DNA from: a virus
Reading direction: 5' to 3' (one strand)
DNA: 7,720 nucleotides
IMG/VR virus record: IMGVR_UViG_3300022231_000047
Location: 1-7,720 of that record
The notes under the pieces are model-generated. The model saw only the letters and a program-made list of their open reading frames with translations. It made no database searches and was not told the DNA's origin. A program made the position numbers and the translations under genes. The stretch's first letter is position 1. The number at the start of each line of letters is the position of its first letter. Positions 1-7,720 of the stretch are shown here, piece by piece.

Positions 1-44
1 ACGAGTCGGGCGAGTTGGCGCGGGATGCGTTTGCCGCAGGGCTG
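1..44. repeat. Terminal redundancy, copy A (identical to 7677..7720)
   Basis: The string acgagtcgggcgagttggcgcgggatgcgtttgccgcagggctg occurs at both window ends. The repeat is cut off by the window end, so 44 bp is a minimum length. Confidence 0.97.
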
Positions 45-406: not shown

Positions 407-487
407 ATGTCAGCCTGGGGTGCCTGCGCAAGCGGGCGCCCCAGGGTGCCATGTGGCGCTAACACTTCCCATGAAAGGGGAAAAATC

Positions 488-721
488 ATGAGCAAGACCA
501 AGCAAGCCCTTCTGGCGCGCGTCGCCCTTATCAACGCCGCGTTCATCGGGTCTGTTTCGTCCGCGCACGCTGCGTTGCCGTCCGAAGCGACCGCCGCGTT
601 CACGGCTGTGAGCGACAATGCTACGGCGGTTCTGGCCGCCGTCTGGCCGATCGTCGGTCTCGTTACCGGCGGTTTCATCCTCATTCGCCTGTTCAAGAAG
701 GGCGCGAACAAGGCCGTCTAA
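488..721 (+). CDS. Major coat protein precursor (pVIII-like), 77 aa
   Basis: AAGGGG (475..480) lies 7 nt before ATG 488. The signal peptide MSKTKQALLARVALINAAFIGSVSSAHA ends in an AHA cleavage motif. The 49-aa mature part has an acidic N-terminus (SEATAAFTAVSD), a hydrophobic core (VLAAVWPIVGLVTGGFILI) and a basic C-terminus (RLFKKGANKAV). Confidence 0.9.
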   Translation: MSKTKQALLARVALINAAFIGSVSSAHAALPSEATAAFTAVSDNATAVLAAVWPIVGLVTGGFILIRLFKKGANKAV

Positions 722-1018
722 ATGCCGGTCTGGTTCCTTCTGTCCGCTCTGCTGGTTGCACCGGCAGGGTGGGCTTCCCGGTCAATGCCTCCGGTCGGGT
801 GCCTCGAAACGGACGCGGGCGCGCGTTGGTGCGTCGGCGATGTGCGCTTGCGTCCCGGGGGTCCGGTGGTGGTTCCGTCCGGTCCGCATCCGGCCACGGT
901 GATTCAACCGGCTCGGCCTGTGTACTCGGTGGGCCAGGTGGTGCCAAGTTTGCCGGAGCTGCTGCCGGAACGTCGAAAGGGGCGCTATGAGCGCGCGGGC
1001 GAGTTTGTTGTGCGTTGA
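722..1018 (+). CDS. 98-aa hypothetical secreted protein
   Basis: ATG 722 directly follows the coat stop (TAA 719..721). The N-terminus is signal-peptide-like (MPVWFLLSALLVAPAGWA). Third codon positions are G/C-rich like neighbouring genes. The 3' end overlaps the pIII-like start by 32 nt in another frame. Confidence 0.5.
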   Translation: MPVWFLLSALLVAPAGWASRSMPPVGCLETDAGARWCVGDVRLRPGGPVVVPSGPHPATVIQPARPVYSVGQVVPSLPELLPERRKGRYERAGEFVVR

Positions 1019-2555
1019 GGTCTTGCGGTGGTTGTTCTGGCTTTCTGTCGCGTTGGTGGGCCTTGGGGGGTTCTCTGGTACCGTCGGCGCTGAAACGTGC
1101 TCGGGTGGGGTCTGCACGGAGCCTGCGACTTCATCGGGTGGGGCTGTCCCTCCCGTCAACTATTCCTGTTATTCCGGGATGCCTCCGGCAGACAAGCGGA
1201 CTAATCAGGCGGCCGCTGAATACTGGTGTTTGCAGTACTTCGTCGGCGAGTCTAATGCAGCGTTGCGGACACGTGACAGCAGGGAGTCGCGTTCTTATGG
1301 CTATATGCTCAACTGGAAATATACAAGCGGTGCGGGCGGGGTTGCTGGTGTCGGGATGACGTACAACTGCGCTGCGGGGCAGACGAAAGCGTACGTGGCG
1401 ACGGGTGATCTGTTCTGCACGGGTGGGACGGTCTATACGTGTCCGTCGACGGGCGGCTGGACGTTGAGCGGTACGAACTGCACGCGACCCGCCTGTGCGG
1501 CTGGCACCAGTCGTCAAGCTGACGGGTCGTGCTTGAAGGATTGCGGTGTGCCTGTCGATGAGCAAGTCGGCGCGGGCTCCATTTACCTCCGGCCGGGCGA
1601 CGGTGGCAAGGTCTGCGTTGAGGGCTGTAGCGCGTATATCGGGGGTCGGACCTATACTGAGGGGGGGCAAACGTACGGGCAAGCGTGGTCCTATGGCGTG
1701 TCTTGTACGGGCGGCACGGAAGCAAGCCCGACGCCGGCCGGTGAGGCTTCGCCTGCGGAGTCCGCCTGCCATGATCGCGGGATGTGCTCCGGCACGGTGA
1801 GCGGCGCGACCATCTGCGTCACGTGTGATTCAACGTCGAGCGAAACGAAAACCACGAAAACGGAAACGCCACCTGGTGCGGCGGGTCCGACAACCACCAC
1901 CACCACCACAACCACCACTTGCGTTGAGGCTGGATCGTGCTCGACGACAACCACTTCGACCACCAGCGGGCCAGGGGGCTCCGGAACGTCGAGCGAAACG
2001 ACGACAAAGCCGAGTGGCGCGGAGCCGGACGCGGGCGAAGAAAAGCCCGAGTCGAAACCGTTCTGTGAGGAAAACCCGGACAGTCCTATCTGCAAGGTGT
2101 CGTCTTTCTCCGGTACTTGCGGCGCGGAGCCGGCTTGTGAAGGCGATCCCGTGCAGTGTGCGCAGGCGCGCGAAGCGTTCAAGCTCCGGTGTGCGCTGAC
2201 TCCGAATGCGACAGATGACGGTCCGATAACCTCGGCGAAACATTCCGACGCGTCGAAGGATGCGCTTACCGAGCAACAGCAACAGGCCCTTGATCTCATC
2301 AACGGGGTAACGCCGGATCCGTCGTCGGCGTCGCGTTCTGCCTGGGATGCGGCGATGTCGTCGGGCTGGTTCGAGCCGATCACTATCGCGGGCTGCGCGC
2401 CGTTGCACATGGAGTTTGCAGGGCACTCCGTGACGTGGGACCACTGCCCGGTCGCTGCGAAAATCAGCGACATCGGGAGCTATGCGCTTTGGTTCGGTTT
2501 GTTGGTCGGCGGGTTCGTCTTTCTGACGGGCGGCCGTAATGCGGGAGTCTCGTAA
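987..2555 (+). CDS. pIII-like adsorption/minor coat protein, 522 aa
   Basis: AAAGGGG precedes ATG 987. The protein has a long N-terminal signal/hydrophobic segment and Cys-rich N-terminal domains. A Thr/Ser/Gly/Pro low-complexity linker includes T10. The C-terminal region is Cys-rich (CEENPDSPIC...CGAEPACEGDPVQCAQAREAFKLRC) and ends in a TM anchor (YALWFGLLVGGFVFLTGG). It is the largest gene and sits between the coat and pVI-like genes. Confidence 0.8.
   Translation: MSARASLLCVEVLRWLFWLSVALVGLGGFSGTVGAETCSGGVCTEPATSSGGAVPPVNYSCYSGMPPADKRTNQAAAEYWCLQYFVGESNAALRTRDSRESRSYGYMLNWKYTSGAGGVAGVGMTYNCAAGQTKAYVATGDLFCTGGTVYTCPSTGGWTLSGTNCTRPACAAGTSRQADGSCLKDCGVPVDEQVGAGSIYLRPGDGGKVCVEGCSAYIGGRTYTEGGQTYGQAWSYGVSCTGGTEASPTPAGEASPAESACHDRGMCSGTVSGATICVTCDSTSSETKTTKTETPPGAAGPTTTTTTTTTTCVEAGSCSTTTTSTTSGPGGSGTSSETTTKPSGAEPDAGEEKPESKPFCEENPDSPICKVSSFSGTCGAEPACEGDPVQCAQAREAFKLRCALTPNATDDGPITSAKHSDASKDALTEQQQQALDLINGVTPDPSSASRSAWDAAMSSGWFEPITIAGCAPLHMEFAGHSVTWDHCPVAAKISDIGSYALWFGLLVGGFVFLTGGRNAGVS
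1890..1919 (+). repeat. ACC/ACA trinucleotide tract encoding a run of 10 Thr in the pIII-like linker
   Basis: The sequence aca(acc)5 aca acc acc act is read directly in frame, with five perfect ACC units at 1893..1907. Confidence 0.9.
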
Positions 2556-2914
2556 TGCCTTTGCCTATTGCGGGTGGGTTCTTCGTCTGGTTGGTGGGTT
2601 TGGTCGGGTCGGCGGCGACGGCGGCGTTCACGTGGTTCGCGACGCATACCGCGTACAAGATGGCGCTGCACTATGCGCGCGTCGTCGCGTTCATCATCGT
2701 TGCCGGGTCGCTGTTCCTGGCGCTGTCGCTGGCTATCAAAGCGGCGATCTTGGCGGCGCGGGTGGCGATGCCTGAGTCGCTTGGACAGGCCACTTACTTT
2801 CTGCCGGGGAACATCAATACGATTTTCGCTCTGTTCGTGACTCTGCGAGTGTCGGCGGCGCTGTATCAGTGGACGCTGCGCAATGTGAAAATCATTACGC
2901 AAACGGTGTACTGA
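2555..2914 (+). CDS. pVI-like minor coat / membrane protein, 119 aa
   Basis: The start overlaps the pIII-like stop as TAATG. The protein is strongly hydrophobic with several TM segments (GGFFVWLVGLVGSAATAAF, VVAFIIVAGSLFLALSLAI, INTIFALFVTL). It sits in the canonical position between pIII and pI. Confidence 0.7.
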   Translation: MPLPIAGGFFVWLVGLVGSAATAAFTWFATHTAYKMALHYARVVAFIIVAGSLFLALSLAIKAAILAARVAMPESLGQATYFLPGNINTIFALFVTLRVSAALYQWTLRNVKIITQTVY

Positions 2915-3792
2915 TGGCCGACTACGCGATTACCGGGCGCAAGGGCTCCGGGAAAAGCCTGTTTGCGGTCGGGCTGATGCGCGACGCGTTGCGCGCGGGT
3001 CGGCGAGTGGCGACTAATCTGGATGTGCGCCTCGATGTGCTCTTGGGCGCACGCAGTCGCGCGACGTTGACGAGGCTTCCCGACAAGCCATGCGTGGATG
3101 ACTTGGAAGCCCTCGGCCGGGGCCAGGAAGGGCCAGTCGAGGATGAAAACGGGCTGCTCGTGCTGGACGAGACAAGCACGTTCTTCAATTCGAGGTCGTT
3201 CGGCGACAGGTCGCGTCAGCCGATGCTCGATTGGTTGGTGCACAGTCGTAAGCTCGGGTGGGATGTCTACTACATCTGCCAGGGGCTAGACCAGATCGAC
3301 AAGCAACTGCGAACGACGATGATCGAATATCACATATCCGTGAAACGTACGGACAAGTGGCCTATTCCGTTCGTGTCGTCGTTGACGGCGCTGCTTGGGT
3401 ATCGGGTCGGGTTTCCGCGGCTCCATATCGGGGTCACTCGGTACGGTGTCGAGCGCGACGGGCTTGTGTGCGGCCGGAAGTACTTCCGGGCGGAGGACCT
3501 TTATCCGGCTTACGACACGCAACAGCTTTTCTTGCCTCGCGAGCATCCGGCCGCGTGCGGGTTGCATACGGTTCTCTCTGGGTATCTGGTCCGGGGTCGG
3601 TATCTGCCGGAGCCGCCTGGGTACTGGCGTCGCTTCGTCTTGTCGCTGCTCGGCAAGTCCTGGGAAGCTGAAGTCAGGCCGCAGGCCGTCGAGCTCAAGC
3701 GCAAGCTTCCTGTGGTTGAGCGCCTGGGCCGTCTGCCACCAGATGAGGCCGTCCGGGTCTGGCATGGCCTTCAGCGGCGGGGCTTGATCTAG
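2914..3792 (+). CDS. Zot/pI-like assembly NTPase, 292 aa
   Basis: The start overlaps the pVI-like stop as TGATG (ATG 2914). Walker A is GRKGSGKS (nt 2935..2958). A Walker-B-like GLLVLDE follows. The N-terminus MADYAITGRKGSGKSLFAV is typical of the Zot/pI family. The upstream in-frame extension from 2869 was rejected. Confidence 0.85.
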   Translation: MADYAITGRKGSGKSLFAVGLMRDALRAGRRVATNLDVRLDVLLGARSRATLTRLPDKPCVDDLEALGRGQEGPVEDENGLLVLDETSTFFNSRSFGDRSRQPMLDWLVHSRKLGWDVYYICQGLDQIDKQLRTTMIEYHISVKRTDKWPIPFVSSLTALLGYRVGFPRLHIGVTRYGVERDGLVCGRKYFRAEDLYPAYDTQQLFLPREHPAACGLHTVLSGYLVRGRYLPEPPGYWRRFVLSLLGKSWEAEVRPQAVELKRKLPVVERLGRLPPDEAVRVWHGLQRRGLI

Positions 3793-3871
3793 CCGACCGG
3801 TGCCGTTGTAATCGCGAGCGAAGCGAGCGCGCGCTCGACAATGCACCATTTGAGTGCATCACAGAATGAGA

Positions 3872-3903
3872 CACTTATCCAGGTGCGCTTACCTGGTTAA
3901 GTG
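3872..3903. promoter_or_regulatory. Imperfect inverted repeat (11/12) cacttatccagg-N8-cctggttaagtg, operator-like
   Basis: The left arm 3872..3883 and right arm 3892..3903 are reverse complements with one mismatch. The repeat lies in an AT-richer intergenic stretch upstream of the 3970 gene. Confidence 0.6.
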
Positions 3904-3934
3904 TATCAACGCTTGACACAGTTATCCAGGTGCG
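3875..3934 (+). repeat. Two exact 13-nt direct repeats TTATCCAGGTGCG (3875..3887 and 3922..3934), 47 bp apart
   Basis: Exact identity read from the sequence. The second copy fills the spacer of the predicted promoter. Confidence 0.9.
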
Positions 3935-3941
3935 AGACAAT
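3913..3941 (+). promoter_or_regulatory. Sigma70-like promoter TTGACA-17-GACAAT for the wHTH regulator gene
   Basis: A consensus -35 TTGACA lies at 3913..3918, followed by a 17-nt spacer and GACAAT at 3936..3941 (4/6 to TATAAT). AGGAG at 3957..3961 lies 8 nt before ATG 3970. Confidence 0.55.
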
Positions 3942-3969
3942 ATCGTTTTCAACGACAGGAGTCTGCGCC

Positions 3970-4257
3970 ATGGATAACCCTCTGCTTCAGCAACTGGAAA
4001 TGGTCGAGCGTCTCGCTAAAGCCGGGACGATCGGTCTGTCTGCTGCCCGGCTCTGCGAGGATGCGGGCATATCGCTTGCGACCCTTAAACGCTACCTTGC
4101 GGAGCTGCGCCACCTCGGCGCGAGGATCGAATCGTACGGGGGTGGGCGCGGCCCGTGGCACTATCGCCTTCGGAACTGGCAACAGATTGAAAAGACTGTC
4201 ACCGCTTGGCTTCGCCTTGAACGTGCCAGGAGTTTCACGGAACTGGACTGCGGATAG
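3970..4257 (+). CDS. Small winged-HTH-type transcriptional regulator, 95 aa
   Basis: AGGAG RBS plus ATG 3970. The segment GLSAARLCEDAGISLATLKRYLAELRHLGARIES looks like a DeoR/HTH_11-style helix-turn-helix followed by a wing. Repeated motifs flank the gene. The GTG 3901 start in the track would run through the promoter and was rejected. Confidence 0.6.
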   Translation: MDNPLLQQLEMVERLAKAGTIGLSAARLCEDAGISLATLKRYLAELRHLGARIESYGGGRGPWHYRLRNWQQIEKTVTAWLRLERARSFTELDCG

Positions 4258-4742
4258 TCTCTACCTGGATACCCGACCGCCGCGTGTGGGTATCCCGGTC
4301 GGCGTCTGCTCTGCGCCGATCACTTCCTGCCGACCGCAGTGAAGCCGCGCCAATGTGCGCACGGCACAGCCGCCCCGTTGAGCACGTGCGGCGCGTTTTG
4401 TGCGCCGTGCGGGTGATTTACGGGGGCAAGGGGCGCGTTCTCTGCGCCCCTTGATGCGGGGGTCACCACAAGCCCCTCCAGGGCGCCGGACGAGGGTGCA
4501 CCGGGCGCGTGCGGTTTTCTCGGCTGACCTTCTGTAGCGTTTCTCGTGGTGCTCGGTCTTGGTCGCTGCCGTGCTCGGCACGCGATAAGCTCGCCTTGGC
4601 TACGCCCCACCCCGCCCCGACGGCTTGTGGACGGGGGGGACCCATTGCGGCAGCAATGGGGGGTCGGCCACGTTTAAGCCGTTGGCCCTCTTGGGCTGTG
4701 CTCCATAGCGGAATGGTTTTGTTCCCGATTGGCCATGATTTT
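4258..4742. other. Large structured intergenic region, candidate replication origin and/or packaging signal
   Basis: This 485-bp stretch has no credible ORF. It contains several GC-rich stem-loops. One is 4385..4411 (11 bp including G-U pairs), which competes with pairing between 4358..4365 and 4404..4411. Others are 4428..4452 (9-bp perfect stem, 7-nt loop), 4641..4660 (8-bp perfect stem, GGCA loop, flanked by G runs) and 4666..4687 (7 bp with a bulge). The position between the morphogenesis and regulatory modules matches inovirus intergenic regions. Confidence 0.5.
4263..4295. promoter_or_regulatory. Inverted copy of the TATCCAGGT motif (4263..4271), embedded in a stem-loop (ggataccc 4267..4274 / gggtatcc 4288..4295)
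   Basis: The reverse complement of 4263..4271 is TATCCAGGT, identical to the core of the two upstream repeats. An 8-bp perfect stem with a 13-nt loop starts 10 nt after the TAG stop at 4257. Confidence 0.55.
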
Positions 4743-5183
4743 TTATAATCGGTTTTCGCATTTCGATAAGCCGAAACTAACATAAACCCAAATTATGCGC
4801 ACCCAAGCTGCATAAAAAACCGCTGCGCTAGCGGTCAGAATTCCACCAAGCTGTGCGGCTTCGGTGCCTGAAGTGGCGATAAAACTCGATGCCAGCGTGC
4901 ACGCTATCAGCACCAGCAAAGCGGCACGCGACAGAAAAGACCGCCAGAATTCCGCGCGCGTCTTGTCTTTCTCTCTCTGGCTTTCCAGGTCGGCTAAAAC
5001 CCTTGCCGGGTCTAGCTTCAGGGTGATGGCTAGCTTCATGACGATGTAATTGTCGGGCCATTCTACGCCCTTCCTGTAGGCGCTGATTCGAAAGCGCGTG
5101 GTGCCGATTCGCTTCGCAAGTTCGTTGTCGGCCAGGATGCCAAGCTCGGCCTTGGCGGCGTCGAGATATTCGGCGGGTGTCAT
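4743..5183 (-). CDS. Divergent HTH (XRE/Cro-CI-like) repressor with two C-terminal TM helices, 146 aa
   Basis: ATG 5183 (minus strand) is preceded by AAGGAAGAG. The N-terminus NELAKRIGTTRFRISAYRKG is HTH-like. The C-terminus has AALLVLIACTLASSFIA and LGGILTASAAVFYAAWVRIIWVYVSF. It is the only minus-strand gene and faces the replication operon, which is the classic immunity-repressor position. The track start at 5246 lacks an RBS and was rejected. Confidence 0.7.
   Translation of the reverse strand: MTPAEYLDAAKAELGILADNELAKRIGTTRFRISAYRKGVEWPDNYIVMKLAITLKLDPARVLADLESQREKDKTRAEFWRSFLSRAALLVLIACTLASSFIATSGTEAAQLGGILTASAAVFYAAWVRIIWVYVSFGLSKCENRL
4775..4803 (-). other. dif-like XerC/XerD recombination site (candidate attP)
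   Basis: The minus strand reads GGTGCGCATAA-TTTGGGT-TTATGTTAGTT. E. coli dif is GGTGCGCATAA-TGTATA-TTATGTTAAAT. The XerC arm matches 11/11 and the XerD arm 9/11, but the central region is 7 nt rather than 6. The site lies in a locally AT-rich patch. Confidence 0.65.
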
Positions 5184-5218
5184 CGTTCTCTTCCTTCGGT
5201 GCTTGTGAATACCCTTCA

Positions 5219-5286
5219 AGATTAGTCCGATTTTCCGCACTTGCAATGTTCGAAAAACCGCACTAGATTGGCGGCTGTGCGGTTTT
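5219..5286. promoter_or_regulatory. Divergent promoter/operator switch
   Basis: The rightward promoter is TTGCAA (5241..5246)-17-TAGATT (5264..5269). The same palindromic TTGCAA could serve as a leftward -35, with TAATCT (reverse complement of 5219..5224) after a 16-nt spacer. A perfect 10-bp inverted repeat aaaaccgcac (5254..5263) / gtgcggtttt (5277..5286) brackets the rightward -10. A third CCGCACT half-site lies at 5235..5241. Confidence 0.5.
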
Positions 5287-5316
5287 CAGCACATAACCAA
5301 CAAGTGAGGTGAGGTG

Positions 5317-5625
5317 ATGCGAGTTCATGCCATAGGTGTCAAGCGTTTGTCGGGTGTTGGTAAGGAAACCGGTCGTCAATACGATTTCGCTCAACTGGAA
5401 ATCTTGCGGCCAATGGAGCCGGTTGCAAAGAAGGATTTCCGGCTGATGGGGTACGGGTTCGAGACTTCCAAGCTGGACCTTGCTCCGGATTGCCTGGAGA
5501 AGTTCCGGGATGTGCGCTTCCCCGCCCAGCTCGATCTGGCCGTCGAAACCGTACCGGGTCGGAATGGTCTCCGGTCCGTGGTCGTCGGTTTTCGCAATCC
5601 GGCCGACGTGAAGGCAGCCGCGTAA
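5317..5625 (+). CDS. Candidate gVp-like ssDNA-binding protein, 102 aa
   Basis: GAGG at 5306..5309 lies 7 nt before ATG 5317. The N-terminus MRVHAIGVKRLSGVGKETGRQYDFAQLE parallels Ff gVp (MIKVEIKPSQ..TTRSGVSRQGKPYSLNEQ). The size and beta-rich pattern are compatible with an OB fold. The assignment rests on by-eye similarity only. Confidence 0.4.
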   Translation: MRVHAIGVKRLSGVGKETGRQYDFAQLEILRPMEPVAKKDFRLMGYGFETSKLDLAPDCLEKFRDVRFPAQLDLAVETVPGRNGLRSVVVGFRNPADVKAAA

Positions 5626-5631
5626 TGCCAG

Positions 5632-5692
5632 CCGCCCGCATCTCTGTTGCGCTGGTCCGCGCGGAGTTGCGGTATTGCCTCCGTGCGGGCGG
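5632..5692. other. 9-bp perfect inverted repeat ccgcccgca / tgcgggcgg, 43 nt apart, in the 148-bp spacer between the gVp-like and 178-aa genes
   Basis: The arms lie at 5632..5640 and 5684..5692. In addition, the 8-mer CTGGTCCG is directly repeated at 5652..5659 and 5726..5733, each followed by GGAG. Confidence 0.5.
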
Positions 5693-5773
5693 TCATCGGT
5701 GCTCTGCCCTTCCGGCTCCGTTCTACTGGTCCGGGAGCTTCGCAATTTCCCGTTGTCGCGAGGGCTGGCTGTG

Positions 5774-6310
5774 ATGGCCTCGCAGGTGGCCGTGCTTTTC
5801 GCCCGCAAGCGGTCCGTGTATCACGGTCTGGCCGGGTGTGATGTTTGGACAGCTGAGCGGGACGCGCGGCGTTATGTGGGTTCGCATCCTGTCATCGCGC
5901 ATCCGCCGTGTCGCGCTTGGGGTCGCCTCAAGGGACAGGCCAAACCGCGATCGGACGAGCGCGAGCTGGCTTTCTTCGCTGTGGAACAGGTGCGGCGTTG
6001 TGGGGGCGTCTTGGAGCATCCGGCGTTTTCCAGTCTTTGGGGTGCGGCGGGTCTTGCTGGACCTGGCACGCGCGATCTGGCCGGGGGCTGGACGCTTCCG
6101 ATACTGCAAAGCTGGTTCGGTCATCGTGCGCCCAAAGCGACCTGGTTGTACCTGGTTGGCGTCGAGCCGTCAGATTTGCCGCTGATTCCGTTCGCTCTCG
6201 GTACTGCTCTCGGTCGTGTGGAAATGATGGGCCAAGCCGAACGGGAGAAAACGCCGTTAGAGCTTGCTACCTGGCTTGTTGCTGTCGTGCGTCGGGTGGG
6301 TCGGGTATGA
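5774..6310 (+). CDS. 178-aa hypothetical protein with a methyltransferase-core-like HPPC...LEHP motif pattern
   Basis: GAGGG (5760..5764) lies 9 nt before ATG 5774. Coding-type G/C-rich third positions are seen throughout. The motifs are PVIAHPPCRAWG (Cys46, nt 5909..5911) and GGVLEHPAFSSLW (Glu81, nt 6014..6016). The stop overlaps the next start (ATGA). Confidence 0.7.
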   Translation: MASQVAVLFARKRSVYHGLAGCDVWTAERDARRYVGSHPVIAHPPCRAWGRLKGQAKPRSDERELAFFAVEQVRRCGGVLEHPAFSSLWGAAGLAGPGTRDLAGGWTLPILQSWFGHRAPKATWLYLVGVEPSDLPLIPFALGTALGRVEMMGQAEREKTPLELATWLVAVVRRVGRV

Positions 6311-6507
6311 GCGGCACGTGTGGGAACTGCTCCGGCGGCAGGATTCTGCCGTGCGGCCCGATGGCGGGCGCGCTATGGTGTTTCGTCAAGCGTCAGGGGC
6401 GCGCGGATTCGTGGTGGTGTGACTCGTGGAAGCCCGCCCTCGGCGCGGCGCTCCCAAGGGTTACGGGACAGTTACACGTAACCAATCGCTCACTTTTGAG
6501 CAAATGA
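6307..6507 (+). CDS. 66-aa Cys/Trp-rich mini-protein, possible zinc-ribbon
   Basis: ATGA overlaps occur at both ends (6307..6310 and 6504..6507). The product begins MSGTCGNCSGGRILPCGPMAGALWCFVKRQGRADSWWCDSWKP, with Cys at positions 5, 8, 16, 25 and 38, including a CxxC pair. Confidence 0.5.
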   Translation: MSGTCGNCSGGRILPCGPMAGALWCFVKRQGRADSWWCDSWKPALGAALPRVTGQLHVTNRSLLSK

Positions 6508-7649
6508 GCGCATTTTTTAAGCAATCGGCGGCGTCGGCCGCGTCCGTCGAGGGCCATCCGGCTGCATGCCAAGTGGGTGCGGTCGTGTTCTGCGACTGGC
6601 TGACCATCTATCAGGACCATCATCAGGGCGGGCTGCCTGTTCTGAATGATGGGTATGTCGTGCGGTTCGAGTGCGACGCCTTCGGGCGTGCGGTCGATCA
6701 GGAAACCGGGGAAATCCGCCCGGTGTTCGATGCGTCGAAAGCAGAGTACACGGTCAGCCGTCGTCTTGAACACGAGGGGAGCTACGACACTCACTTAGCG
6801 GTGCGCTGCGATGGTATCCGGGTCGAGCTGTCCGGGAACGTCGGGCGCTTCGGGCGTCGGGATAACCTGTTCGGGCTGCCGGTGCTGGAAACCATCGCCA
6901 GGGCTAACGAAATCCTCGCGGTTCTCGGTCTGCCTCCGTTCACTCATGTCGAGGGCAATGGGCGCCTCGCGTTGAGCGATGGTTTCCACACTTCGCACAA
7001 TGCGGTGATCACTCGGGTTGATCTGACGGCGAATTACTCGGCCGGGTCTCGGGAGTCGGCTTATCGGGTGCTTCATTGGATGGGCGGTCAGGCGACCGTC
7101 AAGAAAGCGTCGCAGGGGCCGAAGGGGTACGGCAACGGTGTTACCTGGAATGAGGGCAGCAAGCGGCATTATGAGAAGCTGTATTACAAAGCTGATGAGC
7201 TTGGCAAGCATTGCTCGGATGAGGTCAGGGAGTATTGCGAATCGGCGGGAATACTCCGGTACGAGGTAAGTCTCAAATCCCGGCAACTGCTCCGGGATAA
7301 TCTTCAATCTATGGTGAGTTGGTCAAAGGTCGTCGGGGGTGAACGTATGGATAACGTGGTGTTTGGTCGGTTCGCTGAGGTTCTGACGCGCAATCAGGTA
7401 ACGGTAACGGACGTGCAGGATATTCCCGGCAAGCTCGGGCTTATCGCGCGGTCGTATCTCAACGGGGAAAACCCTTACAAGACTCTGCAAGCGGGCGCTT
7501 CCACGATTCGCCGTTGGCGTCGTGAGCTTCTCGCGTATGGGATCGACATTTCGCAACCGTGCGACATTCTGCGGGTGGGTGTGCGGGTCCGTCTTGTCGA
7601 ACTGCGTCCGGTCGCTGTTCCGGCGTGGTACTCGCGTGAGGCTGCCTGA
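6504..7649 (+). CDS. Rolling-circle replication initiator, gpII / RstA / Phage_CRI-like, 381 aa
   Basis: Family hallmarks can be read in the translation: CDWLT near the N-terminus, LSGNVGRFGRRDNLFG (GN...N-FG box), ITRVDLTANY, KLYYKADEL (Tyr-x-Lys region) and LRYEVSLKSRQL. The start at ATG 6504 is preferred because of the ATGA coupling. GTG 6426 is the alternative and would overlap the 66-aa ORF by 82 nt. Confidence 0.85.
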   Translation: MSAFFKQSAASAASVEGHPAACQVGAVVFCDWLTIYQDHHQGGLPVLNDGYVVRFECDAFGRAVDQETGEIRPVFDASKAEYTVSRRLEHEGSYDTHLAVRCDGIRVELSGNVGRFGRRDNLFGLPVLETIARANEILAVLGLPPFTHVEGNGRLALSDGFHTSHNAVITRVDLTANYSAGSRESAYRVLHWMGGQATVKKASQGPKGYGNGVTWNEGSKRHYEKLYYKADELGKHCSDEVREYCESAGILRYEVSLKSRQLLRDNLQSMVSWSKVVGGERMDNVVFGRFAEVLTRNQVTVTDVQDIPGKLGLIARSYLNGENPYKTLQAGASTIRRWRRELLAYGIDISQPCDILRVGVRVRLVELRPVAVPAWYSREAA

Positions 7650-7720
7650 TGGGCTACTCCTGGTCGGGGGTTTGCTACGAGTCGGGCGAGTTGGCGCGGG
7701 ATGCGTTTGCCGCAGGGCTG
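7649..7720 (+). CDS. N-terminal part of a junction-spanning 106-aa hypothetical membrane protein (continues at 1..293)
   Basis: The ATG at 7649 overlaps the Rep stop (TGA 7647..7649) as an ATGA junction. Mapping 7677 onto 1 puts this frame in register with the ORF ending at 293. The joined product is MGYSWSGVCYESGELARDAF...VLIVAALFFAMVMGFRSGFRA, with a C-terminal TM helix. Confidence 0.7.
   Translation, partial: MGYSWSGVCYESGELARDAFAAGL
7677..7720. repeat. Terminal redundancy, copy B (identical to 1..44)
   Basis: Exact 44/44 identity to 1..44, which implies a 7,676-bp circular or tandem unit. Confidence 0.97.

What the first reader, a model, noticed from the sequence alone, without database searches (positions are those of the whole stretch)
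4775..4803. Near-canonical dif-like XerC/D site embedded in the coding sequence of the phage repressor
The minus strand reads GGTGCGCATAA TTTGGGT TTATGTTAGTT. The left arm is identical to the 11-bp XerC arm of E. coli dif, and the right arm matches the XerD arm at 9/11. The central region is 7 nt rather than the canonical 6. No integrase gene is present, so XerCD hijacking is the obvious integration route, as known for CTXphi, VGJphi, Cf/XacF1-type and RSS-type phages. The unusual point is that the site is not intergenic. It encodes residues W127-S136 (WVRIIWVYVS) of the repressor's last predicted TM helix. Strand exchange in the central region (4786..4792) would replace roughly the last 15 codons and the stop of the repressor with host-flanking sequence. 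The integrated and episomal forms would then make different repressor C-termini, which could act as a built-in lysogeny/episome switch.
Basis: partly seen in the sequence, partly recalled or inferred. Interest (0 to 1): 0.75.

Follow-up and report, generated by a model that had tools for sequence, protein, structure and literature searches.

The report
Filamentous phage attachment site inside repressor gene
The 29-base motif is very probably the site this integrase-less filamentous phage uses to borrow the host XerC/XerD enzymes and insert at the chromosome's dif site, and its position inside the end of the repressor gene is already known from related Xanthomonas and Ralstonia phages.

Summary
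The minus strand at 4803..4775 reads GGTGCGCATAA TTTGGGT TTATGTTAGTT. That is 20/22 arm matches to E. coli dif, it is the only such site in the genome, and no randomised sequence scored above 17.

The main interpretation, a XerCD attP, is strongly supported by comparison. The window is a circular 7,676-nt inovirus. Four relatives carrying the homologous repressor are integrated in beta-proteobacterial contigs. In each, the repressor 3' end runs into a phage XerC arm joined to a canonical 6-nt-spacer dif. The far end carries a host XerC arm joined to a phage 7-nt spacer and a weak XerD arm.

This layout matches the VGJphi-type 29-bp attP class. Homology to host dif (nnnnCGCATAA TTTGTA TTATGTnAAnT) is confined to the XerC side (TTTG).

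The "unusual" overlap with coding sequence is not new. XacF1 ORF12, phiRSS0 ORF13 and Xf109 ORF10, all homologous regulators, contain attP.

The "switch" idea is weakly supported. Relatives read the XerC arm in all three frames, and about 40% of homologues stop at its TAA, so integration leaves those proteins unchanged. Here integration would swap 15 residues for "CIM", followed by a stop or host-encoded residues.

No fully integrated copy of this exact phage was found, only one candidate junction with 20 nt of flank.

Verdict: new member of a known kind.

The parts
4775..4803 (-). attP, a 29-nt dif-like site. XerC arm 4803-4793 GGTGCGCATAA, 7-nt central region 4792-4786 TTTGGGT, XerD arm 4785-4775 TTATGTTAGTT. 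The predicted XerC cleavage/crossover lies between 4793 and 4792 on the minus strand.
   Evidence: Sequence. Uniqueness and significance. Homologous sites at the same position in relatives, and the junctions of integrated relatives.
4743..5186 (-). Repressor-like XRE-HTH regulator of 146 aa. It has an N-terminal HTH and a conserved hydrophobic segment at about residues 79-107. Its variable C-terminal tail is encoded across attP (residues 127-137 overlap the site).
   Evidence: phrog_638 'transcriptional regulator' at 1.7e-18 and a weak HTH_3 match. 100% identical to P0001. 27-33% identity to phiSHP2, Xf109 ORF10 and RSS20 ORF13. Alignment A1. Hydropathy.
5246..5294 (.). Inverted repeat (18-nt arms, 83% complementary) in the divergent region between the repressor and the rstB-like gene. 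It is a candidate operator or promoter region of the lysogeny module.
   Evidence: The function is inferred from position only.
5314..7649 (+). Replication module transcribed divergently from the repressor. It comprises an RstB-like ssDNA-binding protein (5314-5625), a phrog_12600 ORF (5675-6310) and an RstA/pII-type rolling-circle initiator (6426-7649).
   Evidence: Pfam CTX_RstB, Phage_CRI and G2P_X_C; PHROGs 929 and 702.
407..3792 (+). Structural and assembly module: pVIII major coat (407-721), pIII-like protein (987-2555), pVI-like protein (2555-2914) and Zot/pI (2869-3792). No integrase is present.
3970..4257 (+). Small HTH_11 protein (95 aa), convergent with the repressor. In a prophage it would be the gene nearest the repressor-distal junction.
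1..44 (+). A 44-nt terminal direct repeat (identical to 7677-7720) produced by assembly. It shows the window is a closed circle of 7,676 nt, that is, the episomal or virion form and not a prophage.
   Evidence: Identical circles were recovered in three ENA assemblies (L006, L007, L008: 7817-141 and 7731-55 both give 7676).

Best explanation
The 29-mer is the attachment site (attP) of an integrative element that exploits the host Xer system (an IMEX). Its architecture is that of VGJphi: one site made of a good XerC arm, a 7-nt central region and a usable XerD arm.

Proposed mechanism (inferred by analogy with VGJphi):
1. The double-stranded replicative form pairs with the host chromosomal dif. 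In the likely beta-proteobacterial hosts this reads nnnnCGCATAA TTTGTA TTATGTnAAnT.
2. XerC exchanges one pair of strands at the boundary between the XerC arm and the central region. The shared TTTG next to the XerC arm stabilises the exchange.
3. The XerD-side bases and the spacer length differ, so XerD cannot complete the reaction. The Holliday junction is resolved by replication or repair.

The resulting prophage has two junctions:
- On the repressor side: phage XerC arm + host TTTGTA + host XerD arm, which regenerates a working dif.
- On the far side: host XerC arm + phage TTTGGGT + phage XerD arm.

The site overlaps the 3' end of the repressor gene because repressor and attP form one compact, horizontally exchanged lysogeny cassette. 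The DNA site is the constrained element, and the protein tail it happens to encode is largely free to vary.

Integration would change the repressor from ...AAWVRII-WVYVSFGLSKCENRL (146 aa) to ...AAWVRII-CIM. What follows depends on the host XerD arm: a stop if it is TTATGTAAA.., or a short host-encoded extension if it is TTATGTTAA.. or TTATGTCAA...
For: Shown directly:
- The site exists, is unique and is far above chance.
- No recombinase gene is present.
- The genome is a closed 7,676-nt circle.

Shown in relatives carrying the homologous repressor. Four prophages have both junctions:
- L002 (GCA_002470165.1): ACTTCGTATAA TTGGCCC CCTATGCAAAA ... prophage ... ACTTCGTATAA TTTGTA TTATGTTAAAT.
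- L005 (GCA_052035955.1): ATGGCGGATAA TGTGGCG TTACGTCTAAC ... GCGTCGGATAA TGTGTA TTATGTAAAAT.
- L017 (Azonexus sp. GCA_041905335.1): ATTACGCATAA TTTGACG ATTACGCAAAG ... AATACGCATAA TTTGTA TTATGTTAAAT.
- L169 (IMG/VR contig, RstA 60% identical): CGTGCGCATAA TTTGACG ATATGAAAACC ... GGTGCGCATAA TTTGTA TTATGTAAACT.

In all four, the repressor 3' end abuts the 6-nt-spacer site and the distal end has the 7-nt spacer. The repeat shared by the two junctions is the XerC arm plus 2-4 nt of central region.

L013-L016 are the closest integrated relative (RstA 68%, repressor 57%). They show the repressor-side junction AGTTCGTATAA TTTGTA TTATGTAAAAT followed by host isocitrate lyase.

Empty-site control: Dechloromonas sp. 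UBA6271 (L063) has the same flanking genes as L002, with a bare dif at the same distance from the left-flank homology (415 vs 422 nt). L002 and L169 share the DUF1178 gene next to dif.

Host dif: a truncated genome scan found nnnnCGCATAA TTTGTA TTATGTnAAnT in many Azonexus, Dechloromonas, Accumulibacter, Propionivibrio, Ralstonia, Herbaspirillum and other beta-proteobacterial genomes. One (L136) has the XerC arm GGTGCGCATAA, identical to the window's.

The DNA is constrained rather than the protein:
- Relatives read the XerC arm in all three frames: R-I-I, G-A-H-N, or ..A-stop.
- Central-region positions near the XerC arm are conserved (TTTGG), while positions 6-7 vary (TTTGGGT vs TTTGGAC) among near-identical phages.

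Candidate junction of this very phage: AATO01000879.1 (L139/L148) is 97% identical to window 1842-4802. It diverges exactly at the outer edge of the XerC arm (ctggccagatttcgccgcta AGTGCGCATAA TTTGGGT TTATGTTAGTT).

Literature:
- VGJphi attP is 29 bp and acts as dsDNA. XerC acts first, homology is missing on the XerD side, and the junction is resolved by replication (PMC4246890; PMC5357621).
- attP inside the regulator ORF is described for XacF1 and phiRSS0.
Against: - No copy of this exact phage with both junctions was found. A JGI metagenome scan for the predicted repressor-side junction gave 0 hits. All 13 contigs carrying the identical repressor show the free 29-mer.
- The single candidate junction has only 20 nt of non-phage flank. 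It could equally be the end of a different repressor allele, i.e. a cassette swap.
- The host species is not identified.
- The order of strand exchange and the way the Holliday junction is resolved are inferred by analogy with VGJphi and were not tested.
- The window's XerD arm (9/11) is much better than those of the integrated relatives (4-7/11), so XerD participation cannot be excluded.
Confidence: 0.85

Rival explanations
1. The overlap is a functional lysogeny/episome switch. The episomal full-length repressor (146 aa, tail WVYVSFGLSKCENRL) and the prophage-encoded form (tail replaced by dif- or host-encoded residues) have different activities, and selection maintains the overlap for that reason.
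For: - In this phage and in 44 of 86 homologues, the crossover does fall inside the ORF, so the two forms must differ.
- Integrated relatives do encode fused tails: P0049 ...RIICIMLNCVCARD..., and P0035/P0052 ...CIM-stop.
- Yamada proposed the same idea for phiRSS0 ORF13, which changes from 156 to 130 aa (PMC3816273).
- Deletion of the 5' part of XacF1 ORF12 destabilises the prophage (PMC5666396).
Against: - 34 of 86 homologues terminate at the TAA of the XerC arm, so integration leaves them unchanged. 4 stop inside the central region and 2 use a third frame.
- Tails after the arm range from 0 to 55 aa and are unrelated even among repressors that are 84-90% identical.
- The region after the first hydrophobic segment is not conserved.
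- The predicted prophage tail (RIICIM) keeps the hydrophobic character of the segment it replaces.
- The XacF1 experiment removed the HTH part of the protein, not the tail.
Confidence: 0.12
2. The site is a functional attP but works by another Xer pathway. Either XerD acts first as in TLCphi or GGI, or there is a complete two-step XerC+XerD exchange as at dif. A CTXphi-like folded single-strand mechanism is a third possibility.
For: - The XerD arm is good (9/11 to E. coli, 10/11 to some beta-proteobacterial arms), so XerD surely binds.
- The mechanism was not tested here.
Against: - TLC/GGI-type sites have a 28-bp layout in which the central region matches dif, plus a degenerate XerD arm. Here the spacer is 7 nt and only TTTG matches.
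- A CTX-type mechanism needs two inverted dif-like sites about 90 nt apart. The window has only one site, and the next best scores 15/22.
- In all four resolved prophages, the repeat shared by the two junctions covers the XerC arm plus 2-4 nt of central region, and the sequences diverge on the XerD side. This is the footprint of a XerC-side exchange.
Confidence: 0.08
3. The motif is a chance or protein-driven resemblance, or it serves only to resolve multimers of the replicative form (cer/psi-like) and has no role in chromosomal integration.
For: - Every recovered copy of this exact phage is episomal.
- Plasmids do use Xer sites for multimer resolution (established knowledge).
Against: - The score is far above the null distribution.
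- The DNA motif is conserved across three reading frames.
- The homologous cassettes sit exactly at prophage/dif junctions in four or five independent contigs.
- The homology breakpoint in AATO01000879.1 falls at the arm.
Confidence: 0.03

Closest known systems
VGJphi-type IMEX attP (Vibrio cholerae phages VGJphi/VEJphi; Das et al. 2011; reviewed in PMC4246890 and PMC5357621)
   Same: - A single 29-bp dif-like site made of an 11-nt XerC arm, a 7-nt central region and an 11-nt XerD arm.
- No phage integrase.
- Central-region homology to dif only next to the XerC arm.
- A prophage flanked by one regenerated dif and one hybrid site. This layout is seen in the relatives L002, L005, L017 and L169.
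   Different: - The host group differs (beta-proteobacteria rather than Vibrio).
- The dif central region is TTTGTA.
- The phage proteins are unrelated in sequence apart from the shared inovirus core.
- The site lies inside the repressor ORF.
- Catalysis was not tested here.
phiRSS0 / RSS20 / RSS-TH1 ORF13-attP element of Ralstonia solanacearum (Yamada 2013, PMC3816273)
   Same: - A homologous reverse-oriented XRE regulator, 31-33% identical.
- A dif-like attP at the 3' end of that ORF.
- Integration at dif by host XerCD, which shortens or changes the regulator's C-terminus (156 to 130 aa).
- The regulator+attP unit behaves as a gain/loss cassette (a 626-nt element absent from phiRSS1).
   Different: - In RSS20 the conserved part is the central region plus the XerD arm (TTTATC TTATGTAAAAT), and the XerC arm is poor.
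- Here the XerC arm is perfect and the spacer is 7 nt.
XacF1 ORF12 / Cf 'primary immunity determinant' / Xf109 ORF10 of Xanthomonas (Ahmad et al. 2017, PMC5666396; GenBank KX181651 annotation)
   Same: - attP lies within the coding region of the phage regulator, and integration at dif by XerCD splits the ORF.
- The regulator influences the stability of integration.
- Xf109 ORF10 is 33% identical to the window's repressor, and its annotated attP lies inside the ORF.
   Different: - In Xf109 the site is read in the opposite orientation (TATACA TTATGCGAA, the reverse complement of TTCGCATAA TGTATA).
- It has a 6-nt dif-identical central region and no recognisable XerD arm.
CTXphi attP(+)
   Same: - An integrase-less inovirus that uses XerCD at dif.
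- An RstA/RstB-like replication module with a divergent repressor.
   Different: CTXphi needs two inverted dif-like sites that fold in the single strand, and its integration is irreversible. Only one site exists here.

Membership tests
IMEX (integrative mobile element exploiting Xer) | Carries a dif-like site with recognisable XerC- and XerD-binding arms | tested here: met
   XerC arm 11/11 and XerD arm 9/11 to E. coli dif. It is the only such site, and the null maximum was 17/22 against 20/22 observed.
IMEX (integrative mobile element exploiting Xer) | Encodes no integrase/recombinase of its own | tested here: met
   No recombinase family hit in any ORF by Pfam, PHROGs, NCBIfam or PDB sequence search. 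The phrog_12600 ORF is of unknown function.
IMEX (integrative mobile element exploiting Xer) | Found integrated at the host chromosomal dif, with hybrid sites at both junctions | tested here: inconclusive
   Met for relatives that carry the homologous cassette: L002, L005, L017 and L169 with both junctions, L013-16 with one junction, and the L063 empty-site control. For this exact phage there is only a candidate junction with 20 nt of flank. A scan for the predicted repressor-side junction was negative.
VGJphi-type attP class | Single 29-bp site with a 7-bp central region | tested here: met
   The same 7-nt spacing is seen in 11 further free or reconstructed attP sites of the family. Class definition from PMC4246890 and PMC5357621.
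VGJphi-type attP class | Central-region homology with host dif restricted to the XerC side | tested here: met
   - In relatives, the shared repeat is the XerC arm plus 2-4 nt.
- For the window, TTTGGGT shares TTTG with the TTTGTA dif common in beta-proteobacteria.
- The actual host dif is not identified.
VGJphi-type attP class | dsDNA substrate, XerC-catalysed first exchange, Holliday junction resolved without XerD catalysis | not testable with these tools
   This needs in vitro or in vivo recombination assays with catalytic mutants.
Repressor-embedded attP cassette (phiRSS0 ORF13 / XacF1 ORF12 / Xf109 ORF10 type) | Reverse-oriented XRE-HTH regulator homologous to ORF13/ORF10, located next to the replication module | tested here: met
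   tblastn gives 31-33% identity to RSS20/RSS-TH1 ORF13 and Xf109 ORF10 and 29% to phiSHP2. phrog_638 at 1.7e-18.
Repressor-embedded attP cassette (phiRSS0 ORF13 / XacF1 ORF12 / Xf109 ORF10 type) | attP lies within the 3' coding region, so integration alters or splits the ORF | tested here: met
   The site covers codons 127-137 of 146, and the crossover falls within codon 131. Fused tails are seen in integrated relatives.
CTXphi-type attP | Two inverted dif-like sites forming a forked hairpin in the (+) ssDNA | tested here: not met
   Only one site is present, and the next best candidate scores 15/22.
TLCphi/GGI-type attP | 28-bp site with a dif-identical central region and a degenerate XerD arm | tested here: not met
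   The spacer is 7 nt, only 4 central bases match, and the XerD arm is 9/11.

The most novel reading that the evidence does not exclude
Xer-mediated integration deliberately remodels the membrane-proximal C-terminus of a membrane-anchored XRE repressor: 146 aa when episomal, about 134 aa ending ...RIICIM in the prophage. Under this reading the phage 'senses' its own integration state and sets immunity, replication or host-gene control accordingly. The many alternative tails in the family would then be exchangeable regulatory modules swapped by Xer recombination between co-resident elements.
Probability: 0.1. Interest if true: 0.55.

Novelty: new member of a known kind. Interest (0 to 1): 0.3.

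Why it matters
- It gives a well-supported integration site and likely host range for an uncultivated inovirus. That host range is beta-proteobacteria whose dif has the TTTGTA central region, such as Azonexus, Dechloromonas, Accumulibacter and Propionivibrio. The same circular genome was recovered from several metagenome assemblies.
- It extends the VGJphi-type 29-bp attP architecture, characterised in Vibrio, to a large family of beta-proteobacterial filamentous phages.
- It shows that the repressor+attP unit, known from Ralstonia and Xanthomonas phages, is a widespread and portable lysogeny cassette. In this cassette the DNA site, not the encoded peptide, is what is conserved.
- The exact predicted junction sequences make lysogens easy to look for in metagenomes or isolates.
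- It does not reveal a new mechanism.

Tried and rejected
- Megablast of the whole window against GenBank phages gave no match.
- Exact-protein look-ups with my own start-codon choices failed: repressor 147 and 167 aa including the stop-codon reading, and RstB-like at 103 aa. The look-up worked later with the database ids.
- A genome-contig scan with the single repressor protein gave 223 pattern hits, none confirmed.
- A metagenome scan for the predicted repressor-side junction TGGGTGCGCATAATTTGNNTTATGT gave 0 hits.
- A viral-contig scan for the 20-nt flank of the candidate junction gave 0 hits. The flank is not present in any fetched locus. It therefore remains undecided whether it is host DNA or the end of another repressor allele (a reading ...LARFRR-stop is possible).
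- None of the 120 sampled dif loci carries a relative of this phage.
- Rfam found no RNA family in the window. The G/C-run hairpin region at 4600-4700 does not fold significantly better than shuffles (z = -1.4).
- A CTX-type two-site attP was rejected because there is only one site.
- Chance was rejected.
- A protein-driven origin of the motif was rejected because three reading frames are used.
Full report
**What is in the window**

The window is an inovirus genome. Its genes are:
- pVIII coat (407-721)
- a pIII-like protein (987-2555)
- a pVI-like protein (2555-2914)
- Zot/pI (2869-3792)
- a small HTH_11 protein (3970-4257)
- a reverse-oriented XRE-type regulator (4743-5186, minus strand)
- a divergent replication module: RstB-like (5314-5625), a phrog_12600 ORF (5675-6310) and an RstA/pII-like initiator (6426-7649)

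No ORF matches an integrase, transposase or serine recombinase.

The first and last 44 nt are identical. Three independent ENA assemblies contain the same sequence as circles (7817-141 = 7731-55 = 7676 nt). The window is therefore the closed episomal or virion form and not a prophage. G+C is 61.5%.

**The observation**

The minus strand 4803..4775 reads GGTGCGCATAA TTTGGGT TTATGTTAGTT. The reference is E. coli dif, GGTGCGCATAA TGTATA TTATGTTAAAT (PMC3025954). Against it, the XerC arm matches 11/11 and the XerD arm 9/11, and the spacer is 7 nt.

A relaxed pattern is found once, against 0.00 expected. In a two-arm score scan of both strands the site scores 20/22. The next independent candidate scores 15. 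In 300 Markov randomisations the top score averaged 14.4 and never exceeded 17.

The site lies in the regulator ORF. With the ATG start the protein is 146 aa, identical to database protein P0001. WVRIIWVYVS is residues 127-136, and 15 codons plus the stop follow the XerC cleavage position.

**Is it a real Xer site? Evidence from relatives**

The regulator has 86 homologues in public data. Most are on 6-8 kb metagenomic contigs, that is, inovirus genomes. Several sit on long contigs, and these turn out to be integrated prophages. Four have both junctions resolved.

| Locus | Repressor-distal junction | Repressor-side junction |
|---|---|---|
| L002 (GCA_002470165.1) | ACTTCGTATAA TTGGCCC CCTATGCAAAA | ACTTCGTATAA TTTGTA TTATGTTAAAT |
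| L005 (GCA_052035955.1) | ATGGCGGATAA TGTGGCG TTACGTCTAAC | GCGTCGGATAA TGTGTA TTATGTAAAAT |
| L017 (Azonexus sp. GCA_041905335.1) | ATTACGCATAA TTTGACG ATTACGCAAAG | AATACGCATAA TTTGTA TTATGTTAAAT |
| L169 (IMG/VR contig; RstA 60% identical to the window's) | CGTGCGCATAA TTTGACG ATATGAAAACC | GGTGCGCATAA TTTGTA TTATGTAAACT |

The pattern is the same in every case:
- The regulator gene reads outward into a phage XerC arm joined to a canonical 6-nt central region and a good XerD arm.
- The other end of the prophage has a XerC arm joined to a 7-nt central region and a poor XerD arm.
- The repeat shared by the two junctions is the XerC arm plus the first 2-4 nt of the central region.

L169's phage XerC arm is identical to the window's. 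The closest integrated relative is L013-L016 (RstA 68%, RstB 65%, regulator 57% identical). It shows AGTTCGTATAA TTTGTA TTATGTAAAAT followed by a host isocitrate-lyase gene.

**That the target is the chromosomal dif**

- The 28-bp sites have canonical arms.
- L002 and L005 share left-flank synteny (yceG-tmk-holB-pilZ-tatD). L002 and L169 share the DUF1178 gene on the right.
- Dechloromonas sp. UBA6271 (L063) has the same flanks as L002, with a bare dif at the equivalent position. The distance from the left-flank homology is 415 nt, against 422 nt to the junction in L002.
One uncultured beta-proteobacterium (L136) has GGTGCGCATAA TTTGTA TTATGTCAACT.
- The window's central region TTTGGGT shares exactly the XerC-proximal TTTG with this dif type.

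**The DNA, not the peptide, is conserved**

Relatives read the XerC arm in all three reading frames:
- As R-I-I, which is the frame used in the window.
- As G-A-H-N (L169, P0056).
- As ...A followed by a stop, where the TAA of CGCATAA is the stop codon. This is the case for 34 of 86 homologues, including L001 and L017.

Among phages that share an identical HTH_11 protein with the window, the spacer is TTTGGGT or TTTGGAC. It varies only on the XerD side.

The protein alignment shows strong conservation of the HTH and of one hydrophobic segment (FWRSFLSRAA..LACTLA). Conservation collapses after that, apart from the arm-encoded R-I-I.

**A candidate junction of this very phage**

AATO01000879.1 (L139/L148; the same sequence appears in JGI as L149) is 97.2% identical to window 1842-4802. 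It then diverges at the outer edge of the XerC arm: ctggccagatttcgccgcta AGTGCGCATAA TTTGGGT TTATGTTAGTT.

The same metagenome assembly also holds the free form, AATO01008861.1 (L012). Only 20 nt of foreign sequence are available. I cannot decide between a host flank, which would make it a true distal junction, and the 3' end of a different regulator allele. Either way, a homology breakpoint at the arm is what Xer recombination would leave.

A scan of JGI metagenomes for the predicted repressor-side junction found nothing.

**Mechanism**

A single 29-bp site with a 7-bp spacer, homology to dif only beside the XerC arm, and no second inverted site together match the VGJphi class. That class is characterised by a dsDNA substrate, a XerC-catalysed first exchange, a Holliday junction resolved by replication, and a prophage flanked by two Xer-competent sites (PMC4246890; PMC5357621).

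The junction anatomy in the four relatives is the expected footprint. The catalytic details are inferred and were not tested.

A CTX-type attP is excluded because there is only one site. A TLC/GGI-type attP does not fit the 7-nt spacer or the good XerD arm.

**Consequence for the regulator**

The crossover after ...ATA A|TT leaves residues 1-131 unchanged. It replaces WVYVSFGLSKCENRL with C-I-M, encoded by TTTGTA TTATG. What follows depends on the host XerD arm:
- A stop if the arm is TTATGTAAA.., as in P0035, P0036, P0044 and P0052.
- Host-encoded residues if it is TTATGTTAA.. or TTATGTCAA.., as in P0049 and P0034.

The predicted prophage form keeps a hydrophobic C-terminal segment.

About 40% of homologues are untouched by integration. 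Tails range from 0 to 55 residues and differ even among repressors 84-90% identical. I therefore regard the tail change as a tolerated by-product of a compact cassette and not as a conserved switch. I cannot exclude a lineage-specific role.

**Comparison with what is known**

- phiRSS0: attP at the 3' end of ORF13, with integration shortening it from 156 to 130 aa. A free-versus-prophage functional difference is already hypothesised there (PMC3816273; PMC4471427).
- Xf109: the GenBank record annotates attP inside ORF10.

These regulators are detectable homologues of the window's protein, at 29-33% identity. The details differ. RSS20 conserves the central region and XerD arm with a weak XerC arm. 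Xf109 carries the site in the opposite orientation with a dif-identical 6-nt core.

The regulator+attP unit is also portable. An 86%-identical cassette sits on an unrelated inovirus backbone in L173, and a more distant one in L017. This echoes the 626-nt ORF13+attP element that distinguishes phiRSS0 from phiRSS1.

**Verdict**

The XerCD-attP interpretation is well supported at the family level, although integration of this exact phage has not been demonstrated. The "embedded in coding sequence" point is already known. The 7-nt spacer is the VGJ-class signature. The switch hypothesis is weakly supported.

This is a new member of a known kind. It extends the VGJ-type attP and the repressor-embedded attP cassette to uncultivated beta-proteobacterial (probably Rhodocyclales) filamentous phages.

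Noticed in passing
window 5246-5263 / 5277-5294: An 18-nt inverted repeat (83% complementary, ATGTTCGAAAAACCGCAC / GTGCGGTTTTCAGCACAT) lies in the divergent region between the repressor start and the rstB-like gene. It is a candidate operator.
   Followed up: no
window 4818-4836 (minus strand): A terminator-like hairpin plus T-run (GACCGCTAGCGCAGCGGTT TTTTATGCAG) lies inside the repressor coding sequence immediately 5' of the XerC arm. The GCTAGC-centred hairpin and T-run recur in relatives L143, L145 and L013. If it works as a terminator, it would end transcripts before attP and before the stop codon. It is not above chance on the scan alone (3 found vs 1.9 expected).
   Followed up: partly
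window 4371-4462; L013 270-361: A 92-nt non-coding stretch is 91% identical between the window and L013, although the two phages otherwise share no detectable nucleotide similarity. It contains inverted repeats 4358-4411 and 4427-4453. It may be an origin, a packaging signal or a regulatory element. There is no Rfam match.
   Followed up: partly
window ~4636-4668; L002 4190-4220; L013 ~170-200: A hairpin is flanked by G/C homopolymer runs (GGGGGGGACCCATTGCGGCAGCAATGGGGGGTC). Similar 'GGTCCCCCCC' hairpins occur at the equivalent position near the repressor-distal end of related prophages. Folding of 4600-4700 is not significantly better than shuffles (z = -1.4).
   Followed up: partly
L173 (1-600) and L017 (7631-8037) versus window 4700-5250: The repressor+attP cassette is 86% nucleotide-identical in L173. 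There it is attached to a quite different inovirus backbone (PF02303 ssDNA-binding protein, PF05356 coat, DUF2523, a 450-aa initiator). This indicates that the lysogeny cassette is exchanged between phage lineages.
   Followed up: partly
window 4743-5186 (repressor residues ~79-107): All 86 homologues of this HTH regulator carry a conserved hydrophobic, transmembrane-like segment (FWRSFLSRAA..LACTLA) after the DNA-binding domain. This suggests a membrane-anchored phage repressor. The second hydrophobic stretch is not conserved.
   Followed up: partly
window 4680-4745 (minus strand, just after the repressor stop): The sequence downstream of the stop remains in frame and similar in relatives whose ORF reads through. 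The window reads ...NRL*KIMANREQN...PRGPTA*, and P0010 reads ...IRLLEIMTNREQN...PRGPTA. The stop codon position has therefore been gained or lost recently, or a small conserved ORF or motif (AAATCATG) lies here.
   Followed up: no
window 1-44 and 7677-7720: A 44-nt terminal direct repeat is an assembly artefact of a circular genome. The true genome length is 7,676 nt, and the identical genome appears in at least three separate ENA metagenome assemblies.
   Followed up: yes
window 987-2555 (pIII-like ORF): A Thr-rich low-complexity linker, including a run of ten threonines (PTTTTTTTTTTC), lies in the putative receptor-binding protein.
   Followed up: no
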